Shown here piece after piece: positions 2,665 through 50,777 of a stretch of 64,000 bases of DNA. The notes beneath the pieces were generated by a model. The model was given only the letters and a program-made list of their open reading frames with translations. It had not been told where the DNA came from and searched no databases. Numbering within the stretch: the first letter of the stretch is position 1; each line of letters begins with the position of its first letter. A program made the position numbers and the translations under genes. Source of the stretch: a virus; IMG/VR virus record IMGVR_UViG_3300032215_000682, positions 1-64,000 of that record. The stretch is one strand, 5' to 3'.

Positions 2665-2864
2665 AAATAACTTTAAAAGAAAATTTAGTAGACGCAAAAA
2701 TAGGAGATGTAGTTAAAAATACAGTTGTAAATCAAATTGGTATTTTAACTAGTAATAAAACTCATATTTGGCAAGTATTTTCATTAAGTACTCTTAAATA
2801 TCAAGATTGGGTTACGTGTAATATAGAAAAATTTAATGGTACAATAACATTAGAAAATAATTAA
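2661..2864 (+). CDS. Small hypothetical protein
   Basis: 67 aa, ATGA overlap with upstream stop. Confidence 0.6.
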   Translation: MKITLKENLVDAKIGDVVKNTVVNQIGILTSNKTHIWQVFSLSTLKYQDWVTCNIEKFNGTITLENN

Positions 2865-2866
2865 AA

Positions 2867-2980
2867 ATGAAAGTATTTAAATTAAATTATTTCAACTTTT
2901 GTCCTCAATGTGGGAGTACAAACATAGAATTAACACCCTATCAATTTAGCATTTGTAATGATTGCTATTATCAAGATTAA
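2867..2980 (+). CDS. 37-aa zinc-ribbon microprotein (not in the ORF track)
   Basis: Translated by hand: MKVFKLNYFNFCPQCGSTNIELTPYQFSICNDCYYQD; two CxxC pairs; fills the intergenic gap. Confidence 0.65.
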   Translation: MKVFKLNYFNFCPQCGSTNIELTPYQFSICNDCYYQD

Positions 2981-3005
2981 AAAACAAAATAAAAACAAAT
3001 AATAA

Positions 3006-4679: not shown

Positions 4680-4681
4680 AA

Positions 4682-25600: not shown

Positions 25601-28600
25601 TAGCTATTTCTTGTGCTCTTTGAGCTATTTGTAATTCTATTCCTGTTTTATATTCTCCATTTTTATTAGTGAGTCTTTTTAGTTCAATAAGTTGTTCAGA
25701 ATACATAGCCTTATCAGCTTTCTCTTGTTCTGTAGCTGTACCTTCTGATATTTTAGAATCAATATATTCTAATTGATTGTAAATAACACTTCTTCTTTCT
25801 CTTAGTTCACTTCCTATTTCATCATTATATAATTTATCATATGTTTCATAATATTCATCTGTCTTACTTCTCACCATATGTTTAGCTTGCCATTTAGCAT
25901 ATTCTAGTATTTTAGCCTTTAATTCAGCATCAACATTCTCTCCTTGCTCTTTTTTAATCTTTAAATCTCTAATTGTATGAAGAAATAAATCTCTATCATA
26001 CATATAATTTTTGTATGGATTTAAATAAGTCAGCACTTTCTTCATATTTCCATCTCTATCCATTTGTGTATCAGCAAATGTAATTAAATCAGAAAGTCTT
26101 TTAGTAAAAGCAATGGGATCAAAGCCTACAGCTTTATAATGAGGAGCGAGTTCTCTATCCATAGAAATTTGTATATCATTTCCATATTTAGTAACTTTTT
26201 CCTTCATACTTTCAACATAACTAACAAATCCTCCTAAAATAGGATCTGCAATATCTCTAAAAGAATTAAAGAATTTAGAATTTCTACTTAAATCTCCTTT
26301 TAACCCTTTTAAAAATCCTAGAATATTCTTGTCATTAGTAAAATCATAATCTTTAATTGATTTCTCATGATTTTCTATTCTTTGTTTTGTATTCCTAATA
26401 AGGGCTACATCATTTTTTTTCTCAGCCCTTGCAAGAATTAGCTCTTCAGATTTAATTTCTTTTCTATGCCAATCTTGCATGTGTGTTGCAGCAGAATTCA
26501 TATATTTCTGTAAAAAGGACACCATTCCTGTTGTATCATTTCTTAAAACATATCTTCTAGCATCTTCTATTTTTCCTAATGTATGTATGACATCATTATA
26601 TATCTCATGAGGAAATCCTTCATTCATAGCTCTTACAGTTTCTAATGAAGCTTCATAAGAATTCATTAATTCCATATAATTAGCTAATAAAGAAATATTT
26701 TCTTTAGCATTTTTACTATCACTAGTTATTTCTTTTATTCTATTAAAAGAAAGCTCTGTTAATTTTTTAATTGTAGCAATTCCATCACTTAAAGCAAGTA
26801 TTTTCAAATCAATGTCTCCACTTTTAATAGCAGAATCCAGTCTTCTTGATATTTCAAAATAAGCATTACTATTTGTAATGTCATCTTGATACAATTCTCT
26901 TTGTTCTTTAAAAGGAGCTGTCTTTAAATCAAATTCATTTCTTTTAAAATATTTTAATATTTTCTCAAGCATTGGTTGAACACTAGCTTCTTCTATTGTA
27001 TTTTTTAATAGAGTGTTATACTTTAAAACATCTTCTTTTACATCTTCCCTGTCTTGAGAATCTAATGCTGTTAGTACATAATTGTTTTTATCTATATTAC
27101 TTTCTAAAACATCTTGAGAACTATTATAAGCTTCTTCTACTACATCTAATGATTTATTTAATAAATGGTCTAATAATGTATATTCTTTAAAATTAAGTCC
27201 AAACATTTGTGTAAGAGCATTCATCAAGAATGATTTTATTTCTTCCCATTTATTTGTATAAGCTTTATATGGAGAAGGTTTTGATGCTAATAGTTTTTGG
27301 AAAGACTCATCTGTTAAAATAGCTGTTAAAAATTCATCAACATTAGTGAAGCCATATTCTTTTTGTTCACTTTCAGACATACTTTCCTTGGTAATTCTGT
27401 AAAGATTACCAAATTCCTTAGCAAGCTTTTCATTAGAATGTAAAAAGTCTCTTGTATTAGCATGTAATATTTCATGTAAAATTAAACCTTCTAAATTCTT
27501 TGAGGGTTTATCAACAATTATTATTACATTATTTTTAGGATCATAAAATCCTGCTATATTTTTAACATCTGCTTCTTTATATACTTTTAATTTATTATCT
27601 AAAATATATTGTTCAGCTTCTTCTTGAGAAAGTAATGAAATTGGAACAGGATTGTGTTCATATCTAGCTATAATACTGCCTAATTTTTGAATATAAGGGG
27701 TATTAGAGCTATTAATTATTCTATTTAATACATCTGTACTATTTACAATAGTTTTGTCTTTAAATAGCTTGTTTTTGATTATATTATATTTCTCTTGTGT
27801 TTGTTTTTCTCCATCTTTAGAAAGTAGTATATGATTTTTAATGGTGTCATCAATACTTAATTTCCACCATTGATTATCATATTCATCAGTAATTCTTTCT
27901 ATTTTATCTCCATATATTTTCCTTAAAGTATTACCTACTCTAGTTTCATAAAATGTCCAAATAGGTTTTAAAGCTCCAAATCCTTCAGTTTCTACTCTTT
28001 GAATTTCATTTTTTAATTGTTGAATCTCATTATCAATTCCTTCTATACTTTTTTCAAAAGTTCCAGAAATAGCTTTTTCATTTCTAGTTTTATTAAAACT
28101 TTCTGTAACATCTTCTACTTTATAATAATCTTCTACCCACCAATCTTTCTTTTTAGCTTCTTCTAAGCTAGTAGCAAAATAATTTTGATGATAACTAGGA
28201 TCATAATTTTCGGGTTTAAAACTTAATACTTTTTCTTTTTTAGTACTAAATTCTTCTCTTTCTCTTAAAGTATTTTCTTTTCTTTTTTCTAATTCTAATA
28301 TTCTACCTTCCTTTTCTTTTTTAAATTCCTCTAAAGTACTGTGACCTTCTATTTTACTAGCTGTATCACCTGTAGGAAACCAAATTTCTTTCATTCCCTG
28401 TTTTGCAGCATCTTGTATTTGAGCTTTAATAAAGAAACTCACCCAATTTCCTTCTTTGTTTAGGAGTTGTAGGAATTGATTTTTAGATGTATTAGGATTA
28501 GGTAAACTGTATTTTAAATAATTATCTGTAAAAATATCTTGAAAATAATTAACTCCTTTGTAAGTATATGAAAATTGACCATCTTCATCTTCTTCTTCAA

Positions 28601-31600
28601 CTCCTAATCTTTTTGAAATTTCAAACTCCTCTTTATTAGAATCTGTTATATTAAAAGACATTTCATTGTCTTGTACTAAATCTTTTTTATCCCTACCTTT
28701 TTGAAATAAATCACTTTGGTTTTCATTTACAGCTAATATACCTTTTTCTTTATTTATTGTTACTCTACTCCACCCAATTCCATTATCTGTACTAAATTGA
28801 GCATGACCTTTTATACTAGGAATAATTCCTGGTACAGCTATTTCTCTTTCCTCATACTCCCAACCATTTGATTTAGTATGTCCTGTGGCTGTTAGATTTG
28901 AATAATATTGTGTGTTTATATTTTCTTCCTGGGTTTTTTTATTTAAAGCCTTTTCATATTCTTTATCAGATATTTCTTTACCATCTTTAAAATATATATC
29001 AAAAGATGGATTTTCAAATCCTCTATGATTCTCTTCTCCTCCTACTATTTCTACTCTATATTCAGAACCATTCAAATCAAAATTTGGAGAATTTAGCCTT
29101 AGTTTAGCAGCAGTATTGTATTCTTTTTCTTTAGCAGTATTAATCTCAACCCCATAACTTAAATCAGCTAATACTCCTGTAATAATATCATTAATAGATT
29201 CAGGTTTATTATTTTTAGCCCAATCAACTATTATCTCTTTTTGTTCTTTAGGTATTTGAAGTTCTGTAAGAGTTTTATTTAAATCCCATCCAGCTTTTTT
29301 ACCTTTATTCCAAATTTCTTGAGCTTTTGATGTAGATAATAATTCAATAGCTTTTAGTTTATATTGTACTTCATTATCATTTGCTTGAGAAGGTATTTTT
29401 TGAAAAGGTAATTCATCATTATTAAATAAATCACTATTATTATTTTCTTTCTTTACCTCACTTCTAATTAAAGAAGCTGGATACTTTTTAGATACTTCTT
29501 TTAAGGCTGATATTTTTTTATTTATTAGAGTTTGAGAATTTTTTTCTTTAGATTCTATATTTTTAAGAATTTCTAACTCTACTTTAGCATCTTTTAGCAT
29601 TTTTTCATTTTGCTCTTTAGAATAAACTTTAAAGTTATTATTTTTTAAAGCAAGAGTACTTTCCTTTATAATATGCTCTAAAGTACTTATTCTACCTTCA
29701 TCACTTATATTACTTTTAATTTCACTAAGACTTAATTTTAAATCATTTTTAGTAATGGTAGGTGATATTCCTTTTTGAGCATCTACTTGAATACTAGTTA
29801 CTATATAACTATGTTGATAGTCTAGTTGAGATAATCTATTTGCTAATGTTTGAGCTTCTTCTCTTGTATTAAATATATTAGGCTCTCCTTTAACTTTAAA
29901 TTTAGTAACTTTTTCTTTATCTTGTGTGTTAATTTCAGGTTTCTCTAATTTACCAAACTTTTGATCTAATATTTTATTAATATTATCAATTAGTTTTTTA
30001 GTTGTATATGGAACTGTATCATCATATTCAAGTCTAAAATTATTATTAAGAGCAATTCCAAGTTCATTATGATGATGGGACAAATTATCTACAATATCTA
30101 CAAGATTGGGTTGTACAGAATTAATATTATTTAAAGATGGGTATTTTGTATAAGAAACTCCTAATAATTCTGATTGCTTAGATTTATTAATTTTTGCTGC
30201 TGCATCCCATACACTTCCTGAATAAGCATCTGTATTAGTTGCCCATTTAATATCTTCAGATTTAGGATATATTACAAATTTAATTTTACTTCCATCCTCT
30301 AAATGTCCTATTTTTCTATCTATAGGTTTAGTAAATGCTGAAATAGTAAATTCTCCTCCTGCTTTTTGATTATCTTCAATATGATGTAAAATGTTTTGAA
30401 ACATTAAATTAACATCAAAATCTGAATATGCTCCTACAACAGAATAAAATCCTTGCCCTCTTGAATATATTTCTTCAGGATTATATTTTATACCATTTAT
30501 TTTTTTCCATTCTTCTATTATTTCTTTAGATTGTTCATATTCTTTATTTTTATTTTTAAAATCATCTAAAGTATTTTCACCAAACTCTTTGTGAAAATCA
30601 ATATGATTTTTTTCTATAAACTCTTGAAAAGAATCAAAATTAGTAACAGCATTATATCCACTATCATCCCCATAAAACTCAGGTTGCCAATTTTCACCAT
30701 AGGAATAATTAAAATGAAGCCATTCTCCATCTGCTTGTAGGAACAGTTTTCTAATATCATTAAGAATATGTTCATTATCTAATCCATTAGAGATTGCCTT
30801 ACTGATAAAATCATCTAACATTACTCCATATTTATTATAAATAGGTTGTCCTTTATCAATACTTTCTTGAGCAGTAGTATTACTTAAATCAGGTTCTATA
30901 GCATTTTTAGCTAATTCTCCAACATGTTTTAATGCTTGAGAATATGTGCTAAACTTATTATTATCAGGAGTGGTATATTCCACTTTATATCCTGGAAGAA
31001 TAATTTTAGAGTTAGAATAAGCTAATAAATCAGATAGTTCTCCTAAAGTAAGATTTTCAGGGAGACTTTCTACGTTAATTTCTTTTTGTTTAAGCAAATC
31101 TCTTACAAAACTTTTAACTTCTGCTAATACTCTTTTAAGAAGAGAAATAAGTTTTCCATCTTTTACCCTATCTAGCTTTTCAGCAGTGTATTCTCCAAGT
31201 AATTGTACAATAGCTTCTTCTTGTTGTTCTTCTAGAGTATAAGGAATATTAGTTGCCTCTAATTCAGATTCAGCTTCTTCCCTATTTTTAAAGAAAGTAC
31301 TTCTTTGTTTTGCAGTACTTGAAACATTATAACCTTTAATAATACCATTTTCTATATAAGGTACAAGATTAAAATCATTTTTAAACTGATAATCCTTTTT
31401 AATTCTATCTAATACTTCCTTACCTCTTCCTTCTTCTAATTCTTTAAGAAGATTTTGGTATAATACATTAGGCTCATAATTATTATCAGATTTTTCTCCT
31501 ATCTTATCAATAGTTCTTAATACTAAATTACCATCTTTATCGTAGGTACCAGACTTACTTTTAGTTCCATCTTTTAAATAAAAATCTTTTTCTTTTAAAT

Positions 31601-32330
31601 TATTTTTTAAAGCTCTTATAATAGGATGGGCTAGTATTTCATGAATTGGTGTGTCTAAAGTAGCATAAGCAAGATTTATAATAGCAACATTATTTTCTAT
31701 TTTACCTTTAAACTCCTGACTTCTATCAGAAATAAATTTATATTTAATTCCTATTCTATCAGATATTCTTTCAGCTAAATCTTTTAAAGTTTTTTCTGAA
31801 GATATTATACCATTAGGAGAATCTTTTTGAAATAATGTCTGTTGTTCACCTTTTTTAACACCACCTTTAATTTCTTTAACAGACCAATTATCACTTTGTC
31901 CTAATTGTTTCCATTCTATATAAAAGTTTGTGTTATTTTTAATATTATATTTACCAATCTTCTCTTGTATCATATTTCTATTAAGAGAAGAATAATATTT
32001 TTTTCCTAGTCCTATTTCTTTAGAAAATTCAGATATGCTAACTTCTTGTTTTTTAGAAATGTCTTTAGAAATAGAATTATTATTCAATTTATTAAACTCT
32101 TCAGAATTAAATACAGCTTTTCCATCTTTTTCTGAAATTAAAGTATTAACATTTTTATTCTTAGACACAGCTTTATCTGTAAGCCATTTAACAGCATCAT
32201 TAAAATCTATTGTATTAAGAATTGTAGTATTTTCATTAATAATTTCATGAGCTTTTAAGAAATTCTTTGTAGAATTTAAAGCATCATCTTTAATGAAAAC
32301 ATATTTTTTATCACATTTTGGATTGAACAT
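22692..32330 (-). CDS. Giant (3212 aa) virion-packaged polyvalent/ejection protein with zincin-like motifs and C-terminal hydrophobic helices
   Basis: Follows the RNAP gene as in crAss-like phages; HEILAH (~aa 230), HEILH (~aa 1619), ENQSDLFQ motif, hydrophobic LGVMAILYTVTSLLIGG. Confidence 0.75.
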   Translation of the reverse strand: MFNPKCDKKYVFIKDDALNSTKNFLKAHEIINENTTILNTIDFNDAVKWLTDKAVSKNKNVNTLISEKDGKAVFNSEEFNKLNNNSISKDISKKQEVSISEFSKEIGLGKKYYSSLNRNMIQEKIGKYNIKNNTNFYIEWKQLGQSDNWSVKEIKGGVKKGEQQTLFQKDSPNGIISSEKTLKDLAERISDRIGIKYKFISDRSQEFKGKIENNVAIINLAYATLDTPIHEILAHPIIRALKNNLKEKDFYLKDGTKSKSGTYDKDGNLVLRTIDKIGEKSDNNYEPNVLYQNLLKELEEGRGKEVLDRIKKDYQFKNDFNLVPYIENGIIKGYNVSSTAKQRSTFFKNREEAESELEATNIPYTLEEQQEEAIVQLLGEYTAEKLDRVKDGKLISLLKRVLAEVKSFVRDLLKQKEINVESLPENLTLGELSDLLAYSNSKIILPGYKVEYTTPDNNKFSTYSQALKHVGELAKNAIEPDLSNTTAQESIDKGQPIYNKYGVMLDDFISKAISNGLDNEHILNDIRKLFLQADGEWLHFNYSYGENWQPEFYGDDSGYNAVTNFDSFQEFIEKNHIDFHKEFGENTLDDFKNKNKEYEQSKEIIEEWKKINGIKYNPEEIYSRGQGFYSVVGAYSDFDVNLMFQNILHHIEDNQKAGGEFTISAFTKPIDRKIGHLEDGSKIKFVIYPKSEDIKWATNTDAYSGSVWDAAAKINKSKQSELLGVSYTKYPSLNNINSVQPNLVDIVDNLSHHHNELGIALNNNFRLEYDDTVPYTTKKLIDNINKILDQKFGKLEKPEINTQDKEKVTKFKVKGEPNIFNTREEAQTLANRLSQLDYQHSYIVTSIQVDAQKGISPTITKNDLKLSLSEIKSNISDEGRISTLEHIIKESTLALKNNNFKVYSKEQNEKMLKDAKVELEILKNIESKEKNSQTLINKKISALKEVSKKYPASLIRSEVKKENNNSDLFNNDELPFQKIPSQANDNEVQYKLKAIELLSTSKAQEIWNKGKKAGWDLNKTLTELQIPKEQKEIIVDWAKNNKPESINDIITGVLADLSYGVEINTAKEKEYNTAAKLRLNSPNFDLNGSEYRVEIVGGEENHRGFENPSFDIYFKDGKEISDKEYEKALNKKTQEENINTQYYSNLTATGHTKSNGWEYEEREIAVPGIIPSIKGHAQFSTDNGIGWSRVTINKEKGILAVNENQSDLFQKGRDKKDLVQDNEMSFNITDSNKEEFEISKRLGVEEEDEDGQFSYTYKGVNYFQDIFTDNYLKYSLPNPNTSKNQFLQLLNKEGNWVSFFIKAQIQDAAKQGMKEIWFPTGDTASKIEGHSTLEEFKKEKEGRILELEKRKENTLREREEFSTKKEKVLSFKPENYDPSYHQNYFATSLEEAKKKDWWVEDYYKVEDVTESFNKTRNEKAISGTFEKSIEGIDNEIQQLKNEIQRVETEGFGALKPIWTFYETRVGNTLRKIYGDKIERITDEYDNQWWKLSIDDTIKNHILLSKDGEKQTQEKYNIIKNKLFKDKTIVNSTDVLNRIINSSNTPYIQKLGSIIARYEHNPVPISLLSQEEAEQYILDNKLKVYKEADVKNIAGFYDPKNNVIIIVDKPSKNLEGLILHEILHANTRDFLHSNEKLAKEFGNLYRITKESMSESEQKEYGFTNVDEFLTAILTDESFQKLLASKPSPYKAYTNKWEEIKSFLMNALTQMFGLNFKEYTLLDHLLNKSLDVVEEAYNSSQDVLESNIDKNNYVLTALDSQDREDVKEDVLKYNTLLKNTIEEASVQPMLEKILKYFKRNEFDLKTAPFKEQRELYQDDITNSNAYFEISRRLDSAIKSGDIDLKILALSDGIATIKKLTELSFNRIKEITSDSKNAKENISLLANYMELMNSYEASLETVRAMNEGFPHEIYNDVIHTLGKIEDARRYVLRNDTTGMVSFLQKYMNSAATHMQDWHRKEIKSEELILARAEKKNDVALIRNTKQRIENHEKSIKDYDFTNDKNILGFLKGLKGDLSRNSKFFNSFRDIADPILGGFVSYVESMKEKVTKYGNDIQISMDRELAPHYKAVGFDPIAFTKRLSDLITFADTQMDRDGNMKKVLTYLNPYKNYMYDRDLFLHTIRDLKIKKEQGENVDAELKAKILEYAKWQAKHMVRSKTDEYYETYDKLYNDEIGSELRERRSVIYNQLEYIDSKISEGTATEQEKADKAMYSEQLIELKRLTNKNGEYKTGIELQIAQRAQEIAKVDNQHYDYVTNTRAFERDKLNNMNLLIAKYGIDSQEYIDGTAKWEKENTRQVISQDFYALRNALSARLNELISEIPNSDFSKTNIGEKYQKIFDLTYGYRDVDGQPVGTDISEESAAKIKELQEEIEKIKETFNSFSGLNEKDSLRWKELYDKRHKGLSTAENEEFKELDGKSKASSLSKAKMKEIKSIFIQLREMQSRQPTPYYIQAFNDASNIKIDDDGRLNGVDILNSPQLNELLENKEFKEWWDKNHFKSLVYDEAIGHKVEKWNRLYQWSKVQPTDPKFIETLPSKDYTIRLLKDEYKTKQIVGITTDNRGNFLPKLSSDKYVNKDYFRLQNSTDPKDKALFNILEIQKKYHLYNQELAVQKKKKLWNEIPRERKDSYERNVNAVRKPQDFSANTWDRVKSWFKGLQEYSSETGNFKITDDTISDESPDVFSLKKGAADIAVPYLDEMDINDVSTDLRKSLLQYGMALKTNEVLKEALPYAKSLREIFEKNVPKTNDKKLFGISSGKNNRLDALDVYVAREFYGQSKVYEMGPTADKVVGVIKGLGALKFLKFNISSDIVNFTDAMTQNFINAGNNHYTQRQYHQSAALHTRIMGNTFNDFFNELGKYSADTLLFRAFEGVQEKTLHETLAQGKSKLKYGMSLDVLMGLRSKTEYYAQSRIYSAYMYATKVDSKEGLISLADAYELNSKGNIQLKAGVDKEWELFTGEKFLDLKRNIQKSVRDSQGAYAKADRTLLEQYTYINFALFLKKFFIQKFLNHFAYDSANSSFSIKDGFTIAPRYNPITGTYLGYWASALNTFSKMYRNKSFDYSYLTEEEKMNTLKFFKELGVMAILYTVTSLLIGGGSDKDKNRAINQMSDGEAYLLYQLLRLQNETETIVSPTQYKDFIMAPSAASVITSYLNVFSDLASQEEFKKTTALHKKGDLKWQQDLLELTGVWSFYGKFADPQTAAINYRRAINSKAK

Positions 32331-32348
32331 TATTTATTATTTTTTGGT

Positions 32349-35300
32349 TTAAAAAGGAACAACACATCCAGGATTTTCTTCCTCTTCTATATTTTCATTA
32401 GTTTTCTCTTCTGGAAGAATATCTTCATTATTAGAAATATTTTCTTGGTCTATGTCATCTTCTATTTCTAAATTAGGAATTTTTGTTTTATCATTATCAT
32501 ATTTACTATTTAATTCTTCAATTTTTACATCACTATCTTCAACTTTAAGAGAAGATATTACAATGGCAATATTTTTAGGTCTTGTTAAAGCTGTATAAAT
32601 ACTTTCAGATTTTTCTTTATTGGAAATAGGCCCAACAGACATAATATCTTTTTCATCCACTACCACTATATCATAAGTACTACCTTGTGATTTGTGAGAA
32701 GTGATGGCATATCCATAATCTATTTTAGCATATTTGTTTTTAAATCCCCAAGCTTCTTCTAAAGCATTTCTATATTCAGGAGAACCTTTTAAAGCAAAAG
32801 CTCTTTTAAACTTCTGAGAAACTAATTCTGCATATTTTTCTTTATCTTTTGACATTATAACATCTATTTCTCTAGGTACATCTTCTAATAATATTATAGC
32901 AGAAACATAAGAAAGGTCATATCCATCTCTTTTAGGTAAAGATACAGTACTTATTTGACTCTCAAAAGAATTTTCTATATCTCCATAAGCGTCATTAAAA
33001 ATTATAAGTTCATTAGGATTGTATTCAGGACTATTTACACCAAATATAGAATCATGAACAAATTTATTAATACTTTGTCTAGTATTATTTTTATATGTCA
33101 CTACTTTAATGTGATTTGGATTATTAGTGTTTATAGCTTCTTTAAAACTCTCTAAAACATCTTGTTTAATATCATTAAAACTATTAGTGAAGATTAAAGC
33201 TCCTTTATCAGAGATAATATTTTTTCTTTCTTTTGCAGGATTTTCATCTGGAGTGTTTTTTTGAGAATTTTCCCAAAAATGGTCTGCAAATGGAAGTATT
33301 GGAGAATCTTCTCCCTGTCTTACTCTTTCTAATAATTTACTCTTATTTTTCCCTTCAAAAACAGGAGACTTTTTACTAAGAAGTTCTTTTTTATCTTTAT
33401 AATAAGAATTTTCAACAGTTCTTATTGGAGGAAGTTGACCCACATCTCCTAAAAATATCACTTTACTATTCTTAGATTTTTTTTCAAATATAAGTTCCAT
33501 AGCTTGTTCATTAATCATAGAAGCTTCATCTATAATAATAATATCAGCATTTTCAATAGGAACAGATTTTCCTTTCTGAGGAGCTTCAAATATTCCATTT
33601 TCTAAATTCATAGATTGTCCTAATAAAGAAGCAATACTTTCAAATCTAGCAAATATTTTACTTTTTCTAAATTTTTCCCTAATAACAGATTTAGCTTTAT
33701 GAGAAAGAGCTGCTACATATGTTGCACTATTAGGAAATTCTCTCACTATTTGTTCAGCTATTGTAGTTTTACCTGTACCTGCTTTTCCTTCAATGACATA
33801 ATATTCTTTAGGATTTCCATTTTTAATAAAATCAATTGCTCCTTTTACAGCTATTTCTTGCTCTGGATTTAATTTTACATTATTAACAGGAGTAGCATTC
33901 TTAGTTTCTTCTATATATTTCTGTTCTTGAGATTTAATTTCTATTTTAACAGGAGTTTTAAGTCTATAAGCTTCATCAGGATAAGTGTGTACAGTAATCT
34001 TCTTACCATCTTGTGTTACAGTTTTAATAAGTCCCAACCCTCTTTTCACTTTAGGTTTGATTATCTGAGCATTATTAGGAACAAAATACTTATCATACCA
34101 TTCTTCTAAAGCTCCATTATTTTCAACAATTTCTTTCATTAATGGTAACACTTTCTCTATTTCATTAGAAATCTGTTCTGTAGGAAGAAGGTTAGTCATA
34201 TATAAAGGACTCTTTTGTAGTCCAGATTGTATAAAAGCAAATGATATGTAGTCTTTAAAGAATTCTCTTACCTCTAAATTATCATCAAGTAGTCCTTTTT
34301 TAATTTCATCAATAGCAAGATTGACATCATTAGTTTCTCTAATTTCTGATTTAAGTTTTAGATTTACAATATCTTTTCTTAATGTTGATGTATTTCCTAC
34401 AAGATTTTTTAAAATAGAATATTTTTTAATTAATTCTGGTTGATCCTTTAATAGAGTGTTAAGTCTATTTATCATCTCCCCATTAAATTGTGGTCTAATA
34501 GTTTGAAAACTATTACCAAAAGCATTATAAGCATATCCTATTAAATCATTCTTAAATCTGGATTCAAACACTTCTTTATTTCCAAAAGAAGCATCATTAA
34601 TTTTAGACAATAGAAATTCATTCACTTGAGGAAGTTCTACAAGTTTAAAAAACTTTGTAAAATTCTTCTTAACAAAATCATTCATATCTAACATAGAAAT
34701 AACAGAATCTTTTTTAATAGCTTCTATTCCTTCTTTATTAAATATATTTTTAGATAGCACTTGTTGATATAATTCTTCTTTTTCAAAAGCTGCAAACACA
34801 CTACTTAAATTAGCTGTATCAAAATCTAAAGCACTTGTTAATTCTCTCAATCCTTGTGCTTGTTGCTCAAGTTCTATATAATGTTCTAAATAAGCTCTTT
34901 GTGTCTTATTACTACTTTTAGAAATGTTTTCTTTTAATGTTTCTTCATTGTATATATCAGAAGATTGTACAATAGCTTCTTTAACAGGAAATTTAGCTTG
35001 TAATATTTCTTTAATTTTTTTGTCAGTAAAATTATTATTTTGATATAAGCTATTTAACAATTTACCCATTTGAAAATTCTTTAACTTCTTTAAAGCTAAA
35101 TATTCTCTAATAATAGACTGATTTACTAAATAAATAGCCTCTCTAATAGGAACACCTGCATGATTTAAATATAGCAATGTTGGTGTAGCTTCAAATGTAG
35201 CACCTAAATCAAACACCCAAGCATCTTTAGCAACATCCACAAAACCATTCATAAATTGTGAAATGATTTCAGATATTTTATATTCTCCATTAGCATCATA

Positions 35301-38300
35301 TTCTTTAGCTAGAGATATATTTTTATATGGGCCATTTTGTATAAAATTATGTTTTAATAATATTTTATTTTCTACTCTTCCATCTGCATATTTAAAAAAA
35401 TTATTTAAAAACACATTATGTTGTTTAAAAAGTTGACTAAATGTATTATTCTTAGCAGCTATTCCTAATGATTTTTTACCCACTAAATTAGCTTCAAATT
35501 GATTAATTTGTGTACTATAATCAAATAATGTAGAATAACCCACTTTTTCTCCTCTTCCTACAATTTTTTTTATTTCATCAGCTAATGGTTTTAGGACAGA
35601 TGTACTATTAGGAGTGATTAAAGATTCAAACATTTCAGGTTGCTCCAAACTTTCTGAAAGCAAACTTATCATTTCATTTTGAAGAATAGATTTTTTATTA
35701 GTACTTGGTAAATCTTTTGTATATTCTTCAATTCCTTTGTCTAACACTTGTTTTAAAGCTGTTATTTTAACATGTATTGCATCACTTTTATCTCTAATGC
35801 TGCTAAAATGTTCATAAAGTTCTATAATATATTTTTCTATTTGCTCATCTCTTTCTTTTTTATTTTCAGCAGACTCTAATATATCTCTTACATCTTGTCT
35901 AACAAATCCAGGAAAACTTTCCAACACTCTATCATTTATTTTTTCACCAGAGCTTTTTTTATTAAATCTTGGTAATTTTCCATCCTCTTTAAAATTAGGA
36001 ATGTACATTGACACTTTATCAATATCAAAGTCAGATCCTGCAATTGCTGTAATTTCGCTAGGAAAAACAATTAAAGAACCTGTAGAAGCTGGAAGAAATT
36101 CTTGAACAATACAATTAAGCATAGAGTTAGCTCCTTGTACAGGAATCCTAACACCCACCATTGTTAATTCAGCTTCATGTTCTTTCACCCATTCTTCATC
36201 TTTTAATAGTTGATTTAAAGCTATTAAAGCTTTTCCTTCATCTATCTCATCAACTAACTTTAATAAAGGTTTAAATTTATTAATGCTCACCTTCACTTGC
36301 ATTTTAGAGACATATTTCTCTCCATTTTCTCTTTCTTTTATTTCATAAAGCTTTAATGTACTATCTTTGTCCCATCCTGTAAATGCTGTTTGAACAAAAT
36401 TATCACCATTAAGTTTATTTTTTATCAGCCTATTATTTACAATAGAAAGAAGAATATTAGTGATTTGTTGTCTAGCTAATGATGAATCAAGAGAATACAC
36501 TAAATTACCTTCATTGTCTGTTCTAATGAAGTCTTGTATATTATCAGGAACATCTTTAGTTTTAAATTCTTTTTGTAATAAAGAAGCAAGAGCTTTAAAA
36601 TTAATTGGCTCATTTTCACCTCTTATTCCAAGTTCTTTTCTTACTTTTTTAAGTTCTATATCAACTAATTGTTGTCTAGCAGCATTATATTTAGCAGAAA
36701 TAGCACCAATCTTTTCAGAAATAGGCTTACCTTCAGCAAACATATCTACATTAAACAATTTATTAAACTGTGTAGCAAATATAATATTAGGTTTCACTTT
36801 AGGCTCAATATACACTTGCTCTTTAAGATAGTGAAAATACTTATCATTTGTTAAATATGGCACTTCTCTATTCTCAAAATTCTCATATTCTCCATTATTT
36901 TGTAAAGCAGCTTTTTTACTACCACTTTCAAATATTCCATATCCTATATTTTCTTTAACAAGTTTATCATTAAATCCTTCTAATGGTTTACCTTTAATAG
37001 CTGTAGGTATCATAGGAATAAGAGCAAATTTATCAAATGCATCTATTCTCATCTCTTGTCCAAAATGTTGCTCTGTATTAGCTATTGTGCCTGAATACTG
37101 AGCCTTAATAGGAACAAAGTAATACAATTCATCATTAGATAGTTCAATGCCCTTAGCAGCCTTTATATAAGCTTTTTCAGCAAGGTCATTCCATTGTCCA
37201 ATTATAATTTTAAAATTTCTATAAAAGTCTAATGTACACAAACCAAGAGCATCTGTTTCATTTACTTCTTTAAAAGCTTTTAATGTATTGAATATATTAA
37301 ATGGAGCATCTTTGAGAGCTTCTTTAGCTTCATCTATGTCCATATTAATTAATTCTTCAGCATTCAATTCTTTTCCAGAATTTTTAATAACAGTGTTTAA
37401 ATAATCTTTTAAATAATTAGAAATTATCTCTCTGTCTTTTAATACAACAGACTTATAGAATTCTTCTACTTGTGATTTTTTATTAAACAAATGTTGTTCT
37501 TGCTCTCTGCCTGTAGCATTTAAATAATATTTAATAATAGGAGACATTACACTAAAATCTCCTGTAGCAGAATCAGCACTAAGCCTTTTATGTACATCTT
37601 CTGGAGATTTAAATTGTGTTACATCACCATTTATAAACATCATTTGTTCATAATTGTAAATATAATTACTTACAACAAAAGCATTAAGAGCATCTGAATA
37701 AGAAAGTCCTTTAGTATCTTTAATACCTATTTCATCAGAAAGGAAATTTCCTTTATTTGTAATTCCTTGTCTAATTTTATCCTTTAATACTTCCACCCTA
37801 TCTTTAAAGAATTTTTCTAAATAAAGCTTAATATCAATATCTTTAAATATATCATCAACATTATTATTAATATTTTCTAATATTTGTTGTTTAATTTCTT
37901 CAGGAAGAATATCTGTAAACATTCTAAATCCATTTCCTGTTTTGTCATATTTAGCAATAGTTATTCCTTTTTCTTCTTTAGCTTTTAAATATATTTTATT
38001 ATACCTTTGAATTTCAAGAATTGTGCCTTTTAAATAATCTTCAAATATATATTGAACAGGAGAAGGTATTAATTCACCATCAAATTCACTAATAGCAACA
38101 GGGTAATTACTGTTAGTGGTGTTATACTTAATTTGTGTACCAAAAGCACTTCCTTTATCACCATATCTCATATGCTCTACAATATTATTTGCAAAGAATG
38201 AGTTTATGTCATAGAATATTTTATCTACACTAAATAAGTCTGTAGTTTTATTACCAACAGTGTCTCTATCAGTTTTAGTTTTAAATCCTCCAATATCTAT

Positions 38301-41300
38301 TAATTCAATTTCAGAATTTCTTCTTTTTCCAAATTCTTCACCTTTTATAATAGAACCATCTTCATTTCTTATTTGAAACAAGGAATTCATCCAAAGTGTA
38401 TAATATAATGTAGGAGAAGCTTCAACAGAATACTCTGGAAAAACTTTAATAAAATCATCTAAATGAGGATATTTTTCTTTATTATTAATTTCAGCATATA
38501 TAAGGCTAGTTTTACTAAATTGAGAATATTGTGATTTCATATCTCCACTAGGAAGCATAGCCATATCTTCTTGCCATTCATTTGTAGCATCTACTTCTAT
38601 TTGTAATAAAGCATCAATATTTGTAGCTTCTGATTTATATTTAAATTCTTTAATTACACTAGCTACACCACTAATATCTTTAATAGGAGATGTTATTTTT
38701 TCACCATAGCTATTAAGATGGTTCATTCCATTGAATATTTGATTCAATGTATCTCTATTATCTGTAATTAAATCATTAAAAGCTTTAGAATTAATTGTAA
38801 CATCACTAAGATCTATACCTAAAGATTTAATAAAAGCAATTCTTGTAGCCTTATCTTTCTTTAAATATGTAACACCATCTTTAACAACACCAAAATCTTT
38901 ATTAACAGAAGCAACATCAAGAACATTTTCTCCAATATTATTTTTAATTATATAAGAAGATTCTTCTATTGTTTTAAAATTAGCTGTATAATATGCTCCT
39001 AATTTATCAATAGCTTTTGTAGCAGATTTAGTGTTATAAAACCCAAACCCTCCTTTAGTGACATCATATACACCTTCATATAAATCAATTTTAGGTTTAG
39101 AAAAAGCTTGTATAAAGGATTGTAAAAGGCTTATTTGTTTAATATTAAAATCTGGATAATTTTCTAATTTAGGAAGTCTTTGTGTGCCATCTTTATCATT
39201 ATTAACCAATTGCTTATACTCTGGATATGTATTTCCAAGTTTAACAATAACATCATACATTTCAACAGGATCTGTTATTCCTTGTGTTTGAGATTGTAGT
39301 CTATACCATGTAGTGCTTAATGGAAGAAGCTTTGGAAATCCAAATTCATTTAATTCTCCTCTACTAAGAGTACTCATTAAAAATACAATTTGCTTAGAAG
39401 CTTGTTTAATTGCTGATTTTTTATTCTTTTCAGCCCATTCTACAGCACCATCTCTTGAAGTTATTTCTTCTTCATCTATTTCTTCCTCTGTTTTAATACC
39501 ACTAAATATTGATGAATTCTCAATATAAGTTTTCTCAAACCCAAGCTTACCATTAAAATTATCATATAGAAATTGTAATTTATCTTGTTGTTCTTGAGGA
39601 AGTGTTTTTGATTCTAGTTTTTCTTGAATGCTAAGCCTAGCTATTTCATATAAACCATCAAAGTTTTTCTTTTTATCTTTCTCATCTGCTGTAAATAAAA
39701 CAAACATCTTACCCCTTCTTTCTAAACCAGAAGTTATAATAGAATCAATTGTGTTAATATAATTATTTACATCTACACTACCTATAATAGTACCATCTTC
39801 AGCAGTGTAAGCTTTATTAAGCTTTCCAAATAATGCATTATCTAATGAAGGAACATTATTAAAATTTCCTTTATATAATTGTTTATAAACATTCTTAATA
39901 GCATCAGGACTTATTAATTCCTTAATGAAATTCCACATTTTTTGAAATATTGTCTGCTTAGACAAATCTTTATCAAAATACATTGTTCCATTAGAATCAG
40001 CATATTCCTCAAAATTATCACCTAGCACTTCCTCAGCTTCTCTATTTGTTAATTGAGAATATGATTTAGAAACTAAATTTCCAGATTCATTAATAACATC
40101 TACAACACCAGATTTCTTTCTTAATTCATTATATAAATTAGTTTTTTGTCTTTTTGTTAAGAATAATTGTGAAAATCCATGATAGGCTTCATGATATAAC
40201 ATTCTTGGTGTAGCAGTGTTATATAATGTAACAACATTATTAAAGAATGTTGCATGAGCACCGCTATTAACAATATTGATAAAGTGATTTAAATCAATGT
40301 ATTTAGAAAGAGGAGAATTACTCCACCAATTTTTTACATCATTCCATTCTGTTTTAGAAAATTTAGATTCTAGTTTTCTATCTTTATTTAAAGTATCAAA
40401 TATATCATCTATACTTTTCTCAGGTTTTTGTTTAATTTCTTGCTTAACCTCTTGTTTTGTTTCAGGAACAATGTTTGAATTATCCAACATCATGTAAGTG
40501 CCTGGAAAAGCTTGTACACCATTTTCAGCAAGTGTGTTAGAATCTTTATTATCATTTACATCCTGATAAATTTCTGTATTATCTATTATGAATTTCTCAT
40601 AATTTGCAGGTGTAAAACTAAGCTTTCCCTCTGTAAATATAGGAATATTAAAATTCTCAATATTTTCAGGAGATTTTATATTTAATTTCTTTTGTCCTAA
40701 AGCATGTTCTAAAGCTGTTTTAAATGCTTCAGAATTATTTTCAGAGATATTAAAATAATAAAAATCACCAACAGCTTTTACATTTTCTATATTAGAAACA
40801 GAATATCCATCAAAAAAACTTTTATTAATTTTAAAAGCTTCTCCATTTTTATTCTTAATTAGATTAATAGAAGCATCATCAAAATATACATATCTATCTA
40901 AATAAGCTTTTCTAGCTTCAAATGTATTTAATGTTTTACTAACATTATTTTCTGTTCCTATTTTAATAAGAGCATCAATAAAGCCTTGCAATTGAACATT
41001 AGCTAAATAAGGTCTTGAAATAGGGAAATTAAATCCATATTTACTATCTGTTAAATAAGATTGTCCTTCAACTCTATCAACAGAAGGTGTTGTACTAACA
41101 AATAATTTTAAATCAGGAAGTGTGTATTCAGCTTGTTCTAATTTTCCATTTAAATTTTTAATAAATGATGATGTAGAAATAGGCTCTGTTACAAACTTTG
41201 TAACAATTCCCATCCCCATTCTTTGAATACTAATAAGAGAAATAGGTGGATTTTTTCTCAAAGCCTCTAAATCTTCTAATGACTGTCTATATGTTGCAGC

Positions 41301-44300
41301 ATCTTCTTCTTTTTCATCAATATCTTTTCTTTTAAAACCTATTGTATTAGTTTTTTTATCATACACTTCTGTAGCAGATCCTGTTATTTTACCATTAGTA
41401 TCTTTATAAATTGTAGGAACATTGTGTATAGAGGGAATTCCTCCTTCTATAACAACATTTCCTTTTTCATTAAAATAAACAATTTGACCAGCATTATCTA
41501 CTAGAACAAGTTTAACATGAGTGTTTTTTTCTTCAATAGCATCTATTTCTTCTTTAGTTTTTGTATCATAACCATTTTCTTTCCAATAGTTATAATCATT
41601 TTCAAATAAGTCTTTAATAGCTTCAAGTCCTCCTAATCTTTCAATTAATTGAGAAGGTCTAAGCACTAACACTTTAAAATCATTAATAGTTTCTTTATTA
41701 ATTATCTGTTTTAAGCTATTCTGAGCTGTTTTAAATGCTTTGTCAACTGTTGTAGTGCCTTTTAGAAACAAATTGCCTACAGAGGTTCCTATGCTATGTA
41801 AAACAGAAGCAGGTACAGGTGGTGGTAATACTTTTTCAACATCATCAATATCAACATCAATTTCATTAGGAATATTTTCTGAATGTAATTCATTTATTCC
41901 TTTTTGTATTTCTATGTCATTATTTATTAATTCTTCAGCACTTACATCACCTTCTTCAGCTTTTGTATTAATATCTTCTATTTCTTTTTGAGAATACACT
42001 TTTTTAAATGGAGAAAGTTCTTTTACAGGTATATTATTTAATACATGTTCACCATCTACTAATGTTACAACATTATCAACAGGAAGAGAACCTAATTTAT
42101 AAGCATTTCCTTTATATTGAACATCATCATTTACTTTTAAGTTTTTAACAAACTCTTCTTTATTAATATTTCCTTCTAAAGGAATATCACTTCTTGATTC
42201 AATATTTTTAATAGCAGCTTCAATTTGAGCTTTTTGATGATCTTCTAATACTACACCAGATTCTCTTATTCTTTTTTCAAAATCTTCTAAAACTTGAATA
42301 GCATTGTCTTCCTTTTCTTGAGGTGTTCCTTCTTTAGCATAAATAGCCTCAGCTTGTTTAATAGCTTCATCAATATTTAAAGCAGCTTTTTTCTCTTGTT
42401 CTATTTCTAATTTTCTATTTTCTAATTTAGTTTTGATTTCATCTAAATTTTTTAAATACTCTTTAGAAATATTAGGAATATTACCTTCAGATTTTATAGC
42501 ATTTAATCCCTTGTCAAGTTCTGATGGGTCATTTATCTTTTTAATATTTGCATCAGAATATTCTTTATTAAATACTTCTAATGAAGATTTTGTATAATCA
42601 TTAGGAATTGTTTCTTCTTGAGCTTTTGCTATAGTTTCTTCAGAAGTGGGTATATTAGCAGCTTCTTCTTGATATTCTGCTTGTTTTTCTTCATTTTTAG
42701 TTAATAGAACAGCTTCACCAAGATTTTCTCTCTTGATTTCATTTTGAAATATCTCAAATTTTCTAGACTCTTTAACAGAATCAGAAAGATGTGGCATACT
42801 ATCTATTAAAGTATTCCAAGATTCATTTCTATCAAATATTTCTTTATATACATCCACTAATTTATTTCTTCTATCAGCTTCTTCTTTAGTTATAAAACCT
42901 TTTTCCACCATATCATCTATATTACTTTTATAAATGCTAGGAGACATTCCCACTCTATATTGACTATATTGAAGTTGTGTATTATTATTTTTCATTCCTA
43001 ATACACCTTCTAATGTAGATTGTGGAAGCATTGTTGCTATAGTTTGTAAAGCTGTATTAACAATGTTTTCTAATGTAAGAGGATCTGTATTTTGATAATC
43101 TTTTTTATAATTAGCTTGAGCATATTTAGTAGCAAAATGATTCATAAAAAGTCCCATTTCTTCTTCTAAAGTTTCTGCACCACTAGTTTTTAGAAATCCT
43201 TTTGCAAATTGTTTAAGAGCATCTCTATCTGTTTTATATAAAAATTTATATAATAGTGGAGCTGCTTCCTTACTTGTAATACTTTCTAATGTTCTTTCAA
43301 TAGCTTTTCTAAATACAGCATCATCTGTAAGTTTTATCAAATCATGTATCTCACCACCAGCAATAGCTAATTTAGTGTTTACTAAAGCATCTACACCTAT
43401 TCTTTCTGTAAGTCCTTCTATACCAGCTCTAACAGCTCCAAGCTTTGTAGATTGATTTAATGTAAGTCCTTTATCAAGTTCTTGTTTAATCATTTCAGGC
43501 CCAAATAAATATACAGAAGGAAGTATAAATCCTGTTGTTGTTCCTATAGCATATTTTGTAGCTTGTAATGTTCCAAGTTCTGCATATTGTGCAGCTTTAA
43601 CAAAAGCATTTGTACCTTCTTTAGCTAATAAACCTTCTTGATATTTTATTGTATTTCCTAATAAAGCTTCTTCAAGTCCTTCTCCTGCAAGTCCTGGTGT
43701 ACCTATTAACACCATATCAAGTCCTACATTACCTATTTGATATAACCAACCAGCAACATCTACTTTAGGCATCAATGTTCCAGCTTTCCATTTAACAGAT
43801 TCTAATTGAGAAAGATTAACTTTCTGACCATTTCTAGTAGTTTGGAGTTCTTGTGTATCTTCACCAGTATTCCATAATGATAATAATGCAGCTTCTTTAT
43901 AAGATGCTTTTCTACCATCATTTAATGTAATAGTGCCATCTTTACTAAAATCTGTAAAACCATTTGTTGCAGCAGCATAAGCTCCCCAAAATCCTGAATC
44001 TTTTTTTAGCATTAAAGCTTTACCTCCTAATAAAGAAAGAGCACCAAGTCCCACTTTACTAGCCCAATTAGAGTTTTCCCACATATTATTTAAATAATCT
44101 TGATGGGCTTCATAATGTGTTAAATCAGGAATTTCTTTTTTAATAACATCATCTACTCTTTTTATATATTTATTTTCTTCTTCAATTTTACTTTGAAGAT
44201 TTATTTTCATTTTAGTAAGGTCTGCATATTGTTGTTTACCTTCATCAGATAATTTGTTTACAGGATCTTTTAATAAAACATCAAACTGTTTTAATTGTTT

Positions 44301-50159: not shown

Positions 50160-50777
50160 TTAATTATTTTTAATTATTTCTTGACAATAATATTTTAATT
50201 CATCTAAATTTAAATCACTTTTCATTTGATTTATTACCATACATACTAATTGGACATTATCTTTTAAATATCCTTTATTAGAATCTATTCTATCAACACT
50301 AACATTTGTATATATTCTACCTTTACCCATTAAATAGGTCATTTGTATTTTACTAATAGCACATAAACCTTTTTAAGATTCCCATAACTTTAATAAAAAA
50401 TCTTGTTTAAAATCTATTAAATGTCCAGATTTTTTTGCTCTTTCTCTCAATCCACAAAACCTTTCCAATAACATTCTTTGAAGATTATTTGGTCTATTTG
50501 AAATAAGTCTTTGTTTTCTTTGTAATTCTTTACAAATCTTACATCTTGTACTCCTATTATTTCTATAAGATTTTTTAGGATCTACACTAAAAAATTCTTC
50601 ATCTTTAGTTTCTCCACAACTTAAACATAATAATTTTCCATCACAATAATGTTTTTCTTTATTTCTAATTAAAGATCTACAATTATTACAAATTAAAGAA
50701 AATCCTCCTACACAATTTTTACATTTATAAAATTTTGAAAATTCTTTTTCTATATTACATTGACTACACACTTTCAT
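50160..50777 (-). pseudogene. HNH-like homing endonuclease interrupted by an in-frame TAA at 50373-50375
   Basis: The two track ORFs share one frame: ...LWES*KGLCAISKIQMTY...SVDRIDSNKGYLKDNVQLVC; N-terminal CxxC zinc motifs. Confidence 0.8.

What the first reader, a model, noticed from the sequence alone, without database searches (positions are those of the whole stretch)
32560..36200. Virion RNA polymerase fused in-frame to a complete SF1B (Dda/RecD-like) helicase
Seen: one uninterrupted 4378-aa ORF carries the two-barrel RNAP signature RIPVQG...GSDFDIDK (nt 36015-36032, ~aa 3152). From ~aa 3870 it carries an intact helicase: Walker A GKAGTGKTT, Walker B IIDEASM, GDVGQLPP, RVRQ, YAITSHKSQGSTY and YTALTRP. 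Known: crAss-like phages package a DxDxD RNAP that transcribes early genes, and the characterised phi14:2 enzyme (~2200 aa) works in vitro on single-stranded rather than duplex DNA. Inference: a tethered helicase could open the template for the injected polymerase or help pull the genome into the cell. I do not recall this fusion being characterised, although accessory domains on these RNAPs are known.
Basis: partly seen in the sequence, partly recalled or inferred. Interest (0 to 1): 0.82.

Follow-up and report, generated by a model that had tools for sequence, protein, structure and literature searches.

The report
Injected phage RNA polymerase carrying helicase
A complete 116-kb crAss-like phage encodes one real 4,378-residue protein that joins its particle-borne RNA polymerase to an intact Dda-type DNA helicase, a recurrent but uncharacterised add-on that may help the injected polymerase reach single-stranded template.

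Summary
ORF 32349-45485 (-) is uninterrupted and encodes 4,378 aa. It has an N-terminal module with an HExxH motif and a phi14:2 gp66-type two-barrel RNA polymerase (model matches PDB 6VR4, E 3.6e-30). A complete SF1B helicase follows (model matches T4 Dda, TM 0.68-0.75), then an acidic tail ending in a cysteine.

It is not an assembly chimera. A second assembler spans the junction, composition is uniform, and at least 1,173 protein clusters of 2,400-7,600 aa carry the same helicase. Among them are TAG-recoded ~103-kb gut Suoliviridae-like phages.

The helicase is an optional cassette:
- Only 10 of the 149 nearest polymerase relatives have it.
- The closest complete relative (TerL 68%, polymerase core 60% identical) has none anywhere.
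- The polymerase tree needs at least 10 gains or losses.
- In some phages the helicase precedes the polymerase.
- It is the slowest-evolving part of the protein and the only SF1B helicase in each of six fusion-bearing genomes examined.

The proposed role, opening duplex DNA for a polymerase known to prefer single strands, is plausible but untested.

This scan noted the same kind of fusion in at least seven other genomes. I found no paper text describing it. Verdict: a new variant of a known kind, of moderate interest.

The parts
32349..45485 (-). Whole 4378-aa gene (P0001): N-terminal module, RNA polymerase, helicase and acidic-Cys tail
   Evidence: stop is TAA, followed by two more in-frame TAA
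40266..45485 (-). N-terminal module, aa 1-1740, about the size of phi14:2 gp67. It has hydrophobic segments and no family match. It is collinear with helicase-less relative P0123.
   Evidence: gp66 begins to align only at aa 2597
40179..40193 (-). HEAYH zincin-like motif (aa 1765-1769), conserved as HEAWH in relatives
   Evidence: consensus LYHEAWHxFSQ
35103..37697 (-). RNA polymerase core, aa 2597-3461, homologous to phi14:2 gp66 aa 857-1656
   Evidence: AF2 model of aa 2561-3500 has pLDDT 79.5. Foldseek top hit is 6VR4_A, E 3.6e-30, TMq 0.64, followed by QDE-1.
36018..36032 (-). Catalytic DFDID motif (aa 3152-3156)
   Evidence: invariant in alignments A1, A3 and A4
33909..35102 (-). C-terminal part of the polymerase protein, aa 3462-3859. 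Homology with helicase-less P0123 and P0124 ends at aa 3859.
32541..33890 (-). Complete SF1B (Dda-like) helicase, aa 3866-4315, with Walker A at aa 3900-3907 (nt 33765-33788)
   Evidence: AF2 model has pLDDT 89.5 and pTM 0.87. Foldseek finds DSH9 8jx6 and T4 Dda 3upu/8s9i at TM 0.68-0.75.
32352..32540 (-). Acidic tail (35% Asp+Glu) ending in ...NPGCVVPF. The near-terminal Cys is shared with helicase-less relatives and with phi14:2 gp66.
22692..32330 (-). Downstream partner gene, 3212 aa (P0002). It is gp65/gp49-like, with its HExxH at aa 1619.

Best explanation
Shown: this is a genuine gene of a complete, divergent crAss-like phage. It encodes a gp67-sized N-terminal module fused to a phi14:2 gp66-type two-barrel RNA polymerase. 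A complete, motif-intact Dda-like SF1B helicase is inserted between the end of the polymerase body (aa 3859) and the conserved acidic, Cys-ended C-terminal tail. The helicase is an optional, repeatedly gained or lost cassette of these polymerase proteins.

Inferred: like phi14:2 gp66, the protein is made late, packed in the capsid and ejected with the DNA. The helicase therefore arrives in the cell physically tied to the polymerase. SF1B motors move 5'->3' on single strands (established for Dda and RecD2). On the non-template strand this is the same direction in which an RNA polymerase travels. At a DNA end, the strand with the 5' end would take the helicase while its partner feeds the polymerase 3'->5'.

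The most likely role is therefore to peel open duplex phage DNA, and to clear bound proteins, so that a polymerase that prefers single-stranded template can start early transcription. This may also help draw the genome in. Phages without the cassette must obtain the same service from other factors.
For: Identity:
- ORF and motifs.
- Polymerase homology to gp66 and fold match to 6VR4, then QDE-1.
- Helicase family, sequence and fold matches to Dda.
- crAss-type portal and TerL in a 115,636-bp record with terminal repeat.

Not an artefact:
- A 73.6-kb Logan contig spans nt 32300-36300 with no difference, though it is probably from the source sample.
- GC, GC3 and CpG loss are the same in helicase and polymerase segments.
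- 1,173 clusters of 2,407-7,662 aa carry the helicase, nearly all in the order HExxH, DFDxD, Walker A.

Selection:
- Helicase columns are 53% identical to the window's protein, against 19% for the polymerase core, in the same 14 proteins. All catalytic motifs are invariant.

Functional linkage:
- The fusion persists with domain order reversed (helicase then polymerase) in L029, L032 and P0041.
- It is the only AAA_30 helicase in this genome and in 5 of 5 related fusion-bearing records.
- Two of those records also keep a DnaB-type replicative helicase, so the fused one is not simply the replicative helicase.

Background:
- gp66 transcribes ssDNA and denatured DNA but hardly duplex DNA.
- Its fold relative QDE-1 needs the QDE-3 helicase and RPA.
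Against: - No experiment of any kind exists. Packaging, ejection, ATPase activity, polarity and any effect on transcription are all inferred.
- The helicase is dispensable in this polymerase lineage. Only 10 of the 149 nearest polymerase representatives carry it.
- P0123 (polymerase core 60% identical, TerL 68%) lies in a 100%-complete 129.8-kb genome with no AAA_30, DnaB_C or Helicase_C match at all.
- Gut phage cr124_1 (TerL 94% identical to a fusion-bearing phage) has none.
- Free-standing members of the same helicase clade sit among ordinary-size genes, as replication helicases do.
- In named Crassvirales the SF1 helicase lies beside the DNA polymerase gene. A replication or recombination role carried over into the fusion therefore fits equally well.
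- SF1B helicases need a 5' single-stranded tail to load, and none is shown.
- The giant protein may be cleaved, which would uncouple the two enzymes.
Confidence: 0.45

Rival explanations
1. The helicase is a Dda-like accessory replication or recombination helicase. It has been moved into a packaged protein so that it is present from the first minute. It acts on forks, origins or roadblocks rather than for the polymerase, and the fusion serves co-delivery, not coupling.
For: - Free members of the same clade lie in neighbourhoods of ordinary-size genes with no giant ORF beside them.
- Named Crassvirales keep their SF1 helicase next to the DNA polymerase or UDG genes.
- Fusion-bearing genomes have no second SF1B helicase.
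- This genome has no DnaB_C or Helicase_C match.
Against: - The closest relative replicates without any recognisable helicase.
- Two fusion-bearing phages keep a DnaB as well.
- The helicase is attached to the polymerase in both orders, not to other cargo proteins, in nearly all the giant proteins examined.
- A late-made, particle-borne protein is an odd vehicle for a replication factor.
Confidence: 0.3
2. The helicase works in the producing cell or at entry for something other than transcription or replication. Examples are acting as a motor or ratchet for genome internalisation, stripping host proteins, or countering a host defence.
For: - The patchy, cassette-like distribution, with at least 10 gains or losses on the polymerase tree, resembles accessory or arms-race modules.
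- In gut relatives other add-ons (the precomputed Pfam families PF08719, PF08902 and PF25176) follow the helicase in the same protein.
Against: - The helicase shows strong purifying selection and a conserved position relative to the polymerase, rather than the rapid turnover typical of counter-defence genes.
- No defence-related domain was found in this protein.
Confidence: 0.15
3. The fusion is an assembly or gene-calling artefact: two genes joined by a chimeric contig, a lost stop codon or a wrong genetic code.
For: It is a single metagenomic record. The only run holding it is probably its own source.
Against: - An independent assembler gives the same junction.
- Composition is uniform across it.
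- The helicase lies upstream of the conserved acidic-Cys tail that helicase-less relatives also have, so it is an internal insertion and not a read-through.
- Hundreds of independent assemblies share the architecture.
- The standard code gives complete genes throughout.
Confidence: 0.01

Closest known systems
Cellulophaga phage phi14:2 gp67-gp66-gp65 virion RNA polymerase block (gp66 structure PDB 6VR4; Drobysheva et al., bioRxiv 10.1101/2020.03.07.982082)
   Same: - Same polymerase family: blastp E 1e-27, and fold E 3.6e-30 with TMq 0.64.
- DFDxD catalytic motif.
- A neighbouring gp65-like zincin protein (P0002).
- An acidic end with a near-terminal Cys.
- The size of gp67 plus gp66 roughly equals P0001 without the helicase.
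   Different: In phi14:2 the three proteins are separate and gp66 has no helicase. Here a gp67-sized module and the polymerase form one chain, and a 450-aa SF1B helicase is inserted before the tail.
T4 Dda and relatives (PDB 3UPU, 8S9I; DSH9 8JX6; L. ferriphilum Dda 9KWF)
   Same: The fold aligns along its full length (TM 0.68-0.75). All SF1B motifs are present, and the size is about 450 aa.
   Different: Sequence identity is only 17-20%. Dda is a free replication-accessory protein, not part of a virion polymerase.
Free-standing SF1 helicase of the Crassvirales replication block (cr3_1, cr110_1, crAss002) and of Flavobacterium phage Fpv1
   Same: It belongs to the same superfamily and is encoded by related phages.
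   Different: These are separate genes beside the DNA polymerase or UDG genes. They are only 24-28% identical, and the Intestiviridae ones form a distant clade in the helicase tree. Fpv1 is the sister of the clade that holds the fused forms.
Neurospora QDE-1 with QDE-3 helicase and RPA
   Same: QDE-1 is the next-best fold match of the polymerase. It transcribes ssDNA and depends on a helicase and an ssDNA-binding protein.
   Different: The QDE-3 helicase is a separate protein, not a covalent part of the polymerase. From general knowledge, not tested here, it is a RecQ-type helicase of the opposite (3'->5') polarity.
Giant fused polymerase proteins of other crAss-like phages (Yutin et al. 2021, PMC7886860; the 'huge polyprotein' remark in the Drobysheva preprint)
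   Same: Large multidomain proteins in the transcription block carrying extra domains; PDDEXK is named in the text.
   Different: No text I could read names a helicase domain in them. The figures are not held.

Membership tests
crAss-type single-chain two-barrel virion RNA polymerase (phi14:2 gp66 family) | DxDxD metal-binding motif in the beta'-like barrel | tested here: met
   DFDID is at aa 3152-3156 and is invariant in A1, A3 and A4.
crAss-type single-chain two-barrel virion RNA polymerase (phi14:2 gp66 family) | Sequence homology to gp66 | tested here: met
   tblastn gives E 9e-24. blastp gives E 1e-27, aligning aa 2597-3461 with gp66 aa 857-1656.
crAss-type single-chain two-barrel virion RNA polymerase (phi14:2 gp66 family) | Fold of the catalytic core like 6VR4 | tested here: met
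   The AF2 model has pLDDT 79.5. Foldseek finds 6VR4_A at E 3.6e-30, TMq 0.64, over 972 columns, with QDE-1 next.
crAss-type single-chain two-barrel virion RNA polymerase (phi14:2 gp66 family) | Lies in a block with a gp65-like zincin protein in a crAss-like genome | tested here: met
   P0002 matches the gp65 zincin region and crAss001 gp49. Portal is phrog_6547 and TerL is phrog_6681.
crAss-type single-chain two-barrel virion RNA polymerase (phi14:2 gp66 family) | Packaged in the virion, ejected, and transcribes early genes | not testable with these tools
   There is no isolate, proteome or RNA data. No RNA holder was listed.
SF1B helicase (Dda / RecD2 / Pif1) | Walker A, Walker B and motifs III-VI intact | tested here: met
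   GKAGTGKT, DEASM, GDxGQLPP, RVRQ, HKSQGSTY and T..TR are invariant or nearly so in 14 and 22 relatives.
SF1B helicase (Dda / RecD2 / Pif1) | Complete two-RecA-domain fold with the SF1B accessory domains | tested here: met
   The model has pLDDT 89.5. T4 Dda 3upu and 8s9i align over about 475 columns, TMt 0.73-0.75. phmmer covers residues 2-429 of the 434-aa 9kwf_B.
SF1B helicase (Dda / RecD2 / Pif1) | ATP-driven 5'->3' unwinding | not testable with these tools
   This is inferred from family membership only.
Order Crassvirales | TerL, portal and MCP group with recognised Crassvirales | tested here: inconclusive
   The portal and TerL PHROGs fit. The nearest TerL matches are Leptolyngbya phage Lbo-JY46 (38%, unclassified), epsilon crAss-like crAssE-Sib (34%) and Cellulophaga phi17:2 (28%). 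No tree was built.

The most novel reading that the evidence does not exclude
The helicase cassette makes the injected polymerase self-sufficient on duplex DNA. It would be a covalently coupled helicase-RNA polymerase that loads at the entering genome end, unwinds 5'->3' on the non-template strand, and transcribes (and perhaps reels in) the genome without host factors. The cassette moves between polymerase genes of different crAss-like lineages by recombination, always landing upstream of the conserved acidic-Cys tail or at the N-terminus.
Probability: 0.3. Interest if true: 0.8.

Novelty: new variant of a known kind. Interest (0 to 1): 0.55.

Why it matters
crAss-like phages are the most abundant viruses of the human gut. 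Their injected polymerase is known to work in vitro only on single-stranded DNA, and how it gains access to a duplex genome in the cell is an open question.

A natural set of polymerases with and without a tethered helicase offers a direct test: same polymerase, plus or minus helicase, on duplex DNA. Near-identical phage pairs of this kind are the window's phage against G006, and the gut Burzaovirus-like phages against cr124_1.

The cassette behaviour also shows how these giant cargo proteins evolve by domain insertion.

Tried and rejected
**Tools and sources that gave nothing**
- No RNA holder was listed for the stretch. The only DNA holder is probably the source sample, so one search is an independent assembly but not an independent sample.
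- Megablast of the gene against GenBank phages found nothing.
- A single-sequence scan of IMG/VR found nothing. An alignment was needed instead.
- Yutin 2018 and the final Drobysheva paper are not held. The figures of Yutin 2021 are not held, so a helicase box drawn in a figure cannot be excluded.

**Ideas checked and dropped**
- Read-through of P0001 into P0002: rejected, because there are three in-frame TAA codons.
- Another genetic code for this genome: rejected. The standard code gives full genes, and TAA ends 88 of the 134 ORFs of at least 80 aa that the script listed.
- The nearest cultured TerL relative, Leptolyngbya phage Lbo-JY46, has no match to polymerase or helicase.

**Leads not reached**
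My guessed accessions were other phages, so that lead is untested.
- Neither the window's helicase nor that of the gut group has a relative above 30% identity in the 50,697 GenBank phage records.

**Slips and unused tools**
- Slips: a wrong reference, an over-long protein and an over-large alignment.
Full report
**1. Observation**

The window holds an uninterrupted ORF at 32349..45485 on the minus strand, 4,378 codons, ATG to TAA.
- RIPVQG, and about 35 residues later DFDIDK (DFDID = aa 3152-3156; nt 36015-36032 covers DFDIDK).
- From aa 3900: GKAGTGKT, then IIDEASM, GDVGQLPP, RVRQ, HKSQGSTY and YTALTRP.

The following 3,212-codon gene is in the same frame, but three in-frame TAA codons separate the two. 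The standard genetic code applies throughout this genome.

**2. What the parts are**

*Helicase.*
- Pfam and PHROGs recognise only the helicase: AAA_30, AAA_19 and UvrD_C_2, and phrog_325 'Dda-like helicase' at aa 3847-4338, E 1e-71.
- A sequence search of the PDB aligns aa 3868-4306 with residues 2-429 of a 434-residue Dda (9kwf).
- An AlphaFold model of aa 3855-4325, built on 22 relatives, has pLDDT 89.5.
- Its best structural matches are DSH9, T4 Dda (TM 0.68-0.75), RecD2, RecD and Pif1.
- So the helicase is complete.

*Polymerase.*
- It is invisible to the profile libraries but matches phi14:2 g066 'Catalytic RNA polymerase subunit'. tblastn gives E 9e-24. blastp gives E 1e-27, aligning aa 2597-3461 with gp66 aa 857-1656.
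- A model of aa 2561-3500 (pLDDT 79.5) finds 6VR4, the phi14:2 virion polymerase, as its top hit: E 3.6e-30, TMq 0.64.
- QDE-1 follows, then the beta' subunits of cellular polymerases.

*The rest of the protein and its neighbour.*
- The first ~1,740 residues have no family match. They are about the size of phi14:2 gp67 and carry a conserved HExxH.
- The downstream P0002 matches the zincin region of gp65 and crAss001 gp49.

*The genome.*
- It is an IMG/VR record of 115,636 bp with a 123-bp terminal repeat.
- It has a crAss-type portal and TerL, a family-A DNA polymerase and a DnaG-type primase.
- Its TerL is nearest to Leptolyngbya phage Lbo-JY46 (38%) and to epsilon-group crAss-like phages. 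It is therefore a deep-branching crAss-like phage.

**3. Is the fusion real?**

- A Logan contig of 73.6 kb spans nt 32300-36300 with no difference. It comes from another assembler, though probably from the source sample.
- GC, GC3 and the near-total loss of CpG are the same in the helicase and polymerase segments.
- A search restricted to proteins of 2,407-7,662 aa found 1,173 clusters carrying this helicase. In nearly all of those listed the order is HExxH, DFDxD, Walker A.
- IMG/VR yielded 31 loci. At least 12 of them have polymerase and helicase in one open frame.
- Four ~103-kb genomes are open only if TAG is read as an amino acid. The TerL of one is 94% identical to that of cr124_1, Suoliviridae, genus Burzaovirus.
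- The helicase lies between the end of homology with helicase-less relatives (aa 3859) and an acidic tail ending in a cysteine. Those relatives also have that tail. It is therefore an internal insertion, not a read-through into a neighbouring gene.

**4. Distribution and evolution**

*How many polymerase relatives carry it.*
- A full HMMER scan of 1.84 billion representatives with the polymerase core gave 2,295 relatives. Of the best 149, only 10 carry the helicase.

*The closest relatives lack it.*
- P0123 has a core 60% identical and is collinear over all its 3,870 residues (48% identity overall).
- P0124 is 50% identical.
- Both lack the helicase.
- P0123 lies in a 129.8-kb genome rated 100% complete, with TerL 68% identical to the window's and the same gene order.
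- That genome has no AAA_30, DnaB_C or Helicase_C match anywhere.
- cr124_1 likewise has none, although a phage with 94%-identical TerL does.

*The two trees disagree.*
- The proteins whose helicases are closest to the window's (56-62% identical, e.g. P0003, P0005, P0007, P0010) have polymerase cores that are mostly only 22-26% identical (34% over a partial alignment in P0010).
- A FastTree of 158 polymerase cores needs at least 10 changes of helicase state. It places the window in a starred four-row clade whose other members lack the helicase. One of those, P0122, is probably a truncated fragment, so its state is unknown. This is a quick method, so individual branches are tentative.

*Free and fused forms belong together.*
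- In the helicase tree all fused forms form one clade (SH-aLRT 94) together with several free-standing ~470-aa helicases.
- Fpv1's free helicase is the sister of that clade. The Intestiviridae replication-block SF1 helicases are far away.
- The free forms sit among ordinary-size genes. Many more exist at 45-53% identity.

*Domain order and rate.*
- Domain order is not fixed: L029, L032 and P0041 have helicase then polymerase.
- Within 14 giant proteins the helicase is by far the most conserved segment, at 53% against 19% for the polymerase core. That set was chosen through the helicase, but the comparison is within the same proteins.

*Other helicases.*
- In this genome and in five related fusion-bearing records, the fused helicase is the only AAA_30 helicase.
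- Two of those records also have a DnaB.
- The window's genome has neither DnaB_C nor Helicase_C.

**5. Mechanism**

Shown:
- an active-looking SF1B motor under strong constraint;
- covalent attachment to the polymerase in either order;
- optional presence.

Established elsewhere:
- gp66 is virion-borne.
- It transcribes early genes.
- It works in vitro on single-stranded or denatured DNA but hardly on duplex DNA.
- QDE-1 needs a helicase and RPA.
- SF1B helicases move 5'->3' (general knowledge of Dda and RecD2).

Inferred:
- On the non-template strand the helicase would travel with the polymerase.
- At a DNA end the two would load on complementary strands and move inward together.
- I therefore favour a template-opening, roadblock-clearing helper for early transcription (about 45%).
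- The main rival is a replication or recombination helicase that is merely co-delivered (about 30%). It is supported by the replication-type context of free relatives and by the lack of any second SF1B helicase.
- Other entry or counter-defence roles (about 15%) fit the cassette-like turnover.
- The absence of the helicase from the nearest relatives shows that it cannot be a general requirement of this polymerase family.

**6. Comparison with what is known, and novelty**

- Giant multidomain proteins in the crAss transcription block, and fusion of the three cargo proteins into one chain, are in the literature.
- I found no text naming a helicase domain in them. The 2023 Crassvirales review does not contain the word helicase.
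- None of the 50,697 GenBank phage records holds a close relative of this helicase clade.
- This scan has already reported the same kind of fusion in at least seven other genomes, and this same stretch was read before.
- I class it as a new variant of a known kind.
- This report adds several points about it:
  - where the cassette is inserted;
  - its absence from the nearest relatives;
  - the disagreement between the helicase and polymerase trees;
  - the reversed domain order in some phages;
  - its slow rate of change.

**7. In passing**

254 of the 269 giant polymerase proteins fetched have a cysteine within their last eight residues. Cysteine makes up only 0.17% of these proteins, so chance would give about 1.4%. 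P0001 has three cysteines in all. phi14:2 gp66 and gp67 also end with a cysteine within their last two residues. In crAss001 gp50 the last cysteine lies ten residues from the end, outside the eight-residue window counted.

Noticed in passing
window 32352-32366 (aa 4374-4378), and the C-termini of P0003-P0270, L052, L053: There is a near-terminal cysteine in otherwise almost Cys-free giant polymerase proteins. 254 of 269 have a Cys in the last 8 residues, where chance gives about 1.4%. It is usually preceded by an acidic tail. phi14:2 gp66 (...QECK) and gp67 (...NTIC) show it too. In crAss001 gp50 the last Cys lies ten residues from the end, outside that eight-residue window. It might be a packaging, anchoring or processing signal, but its function is unknown.
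   Followed up: partly
G000 whole genome, and G006 (L050 record): No recognisable replicative helicase (DnaB_C, Helicase_C) was found in this 115.6-kb phage. Its 129.8-kb closest relative has no helicase of any of the three families tested. A 402-aa P-loop protein (G000 107943-109151, L006:3943-5151) of unknown family sits beside the Sak4-like and primase genes and could be a cryptic one.
   Followed up: partly
window 32349-45485: CpG is extremely depleted: 3 CpG in 13.1 kb of coding sequence where about 237 are expected, evenly across all domains.
   Followed up: partly
L014/G003 versus NC_055899.1 (cr124_1): Two gut Burzaovirus-like phages have 94%-identical TerL but differ in the cassette. 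G003 has the helicase inside a TAG-recoded open frame of at least 5,868 codons (it touches the locus edge). cr124_1 has no AAA_30 match at all.
   Followed up: partly
L017:11720-13028: In this IMG/VR contig the helicase starts in the polymerase frame and continues in the +1 frame after about 35 residues. This is a frameshift at the junction; whether it is a sequencing error or programmed is undecided.
   Followed up: no
L027:7415-19120: A 3,902-aa open frame in a 44%-GC contig carries the same helicase at about aa 867 and an HExxH at aa 1453. It shows no detectable similarity to the polymerase core and has no DFDxD motif.
   Followed up: no
window 520-6268, and G000 98254-100862: Genes for an ATP-grasp (RimK-like) ligase, two glutamine amidotransferases, an amidoligase and a COOH-NH2 ligase are present. 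This looks like a peptide or amide-ligation pathway of unknown target.
   Followed up: no
window 50373-50777 and 12550-13206: Two HNH/endonuclease VII-like genes are present, one of them between the lysis and cargo genes.
   Followed up: no
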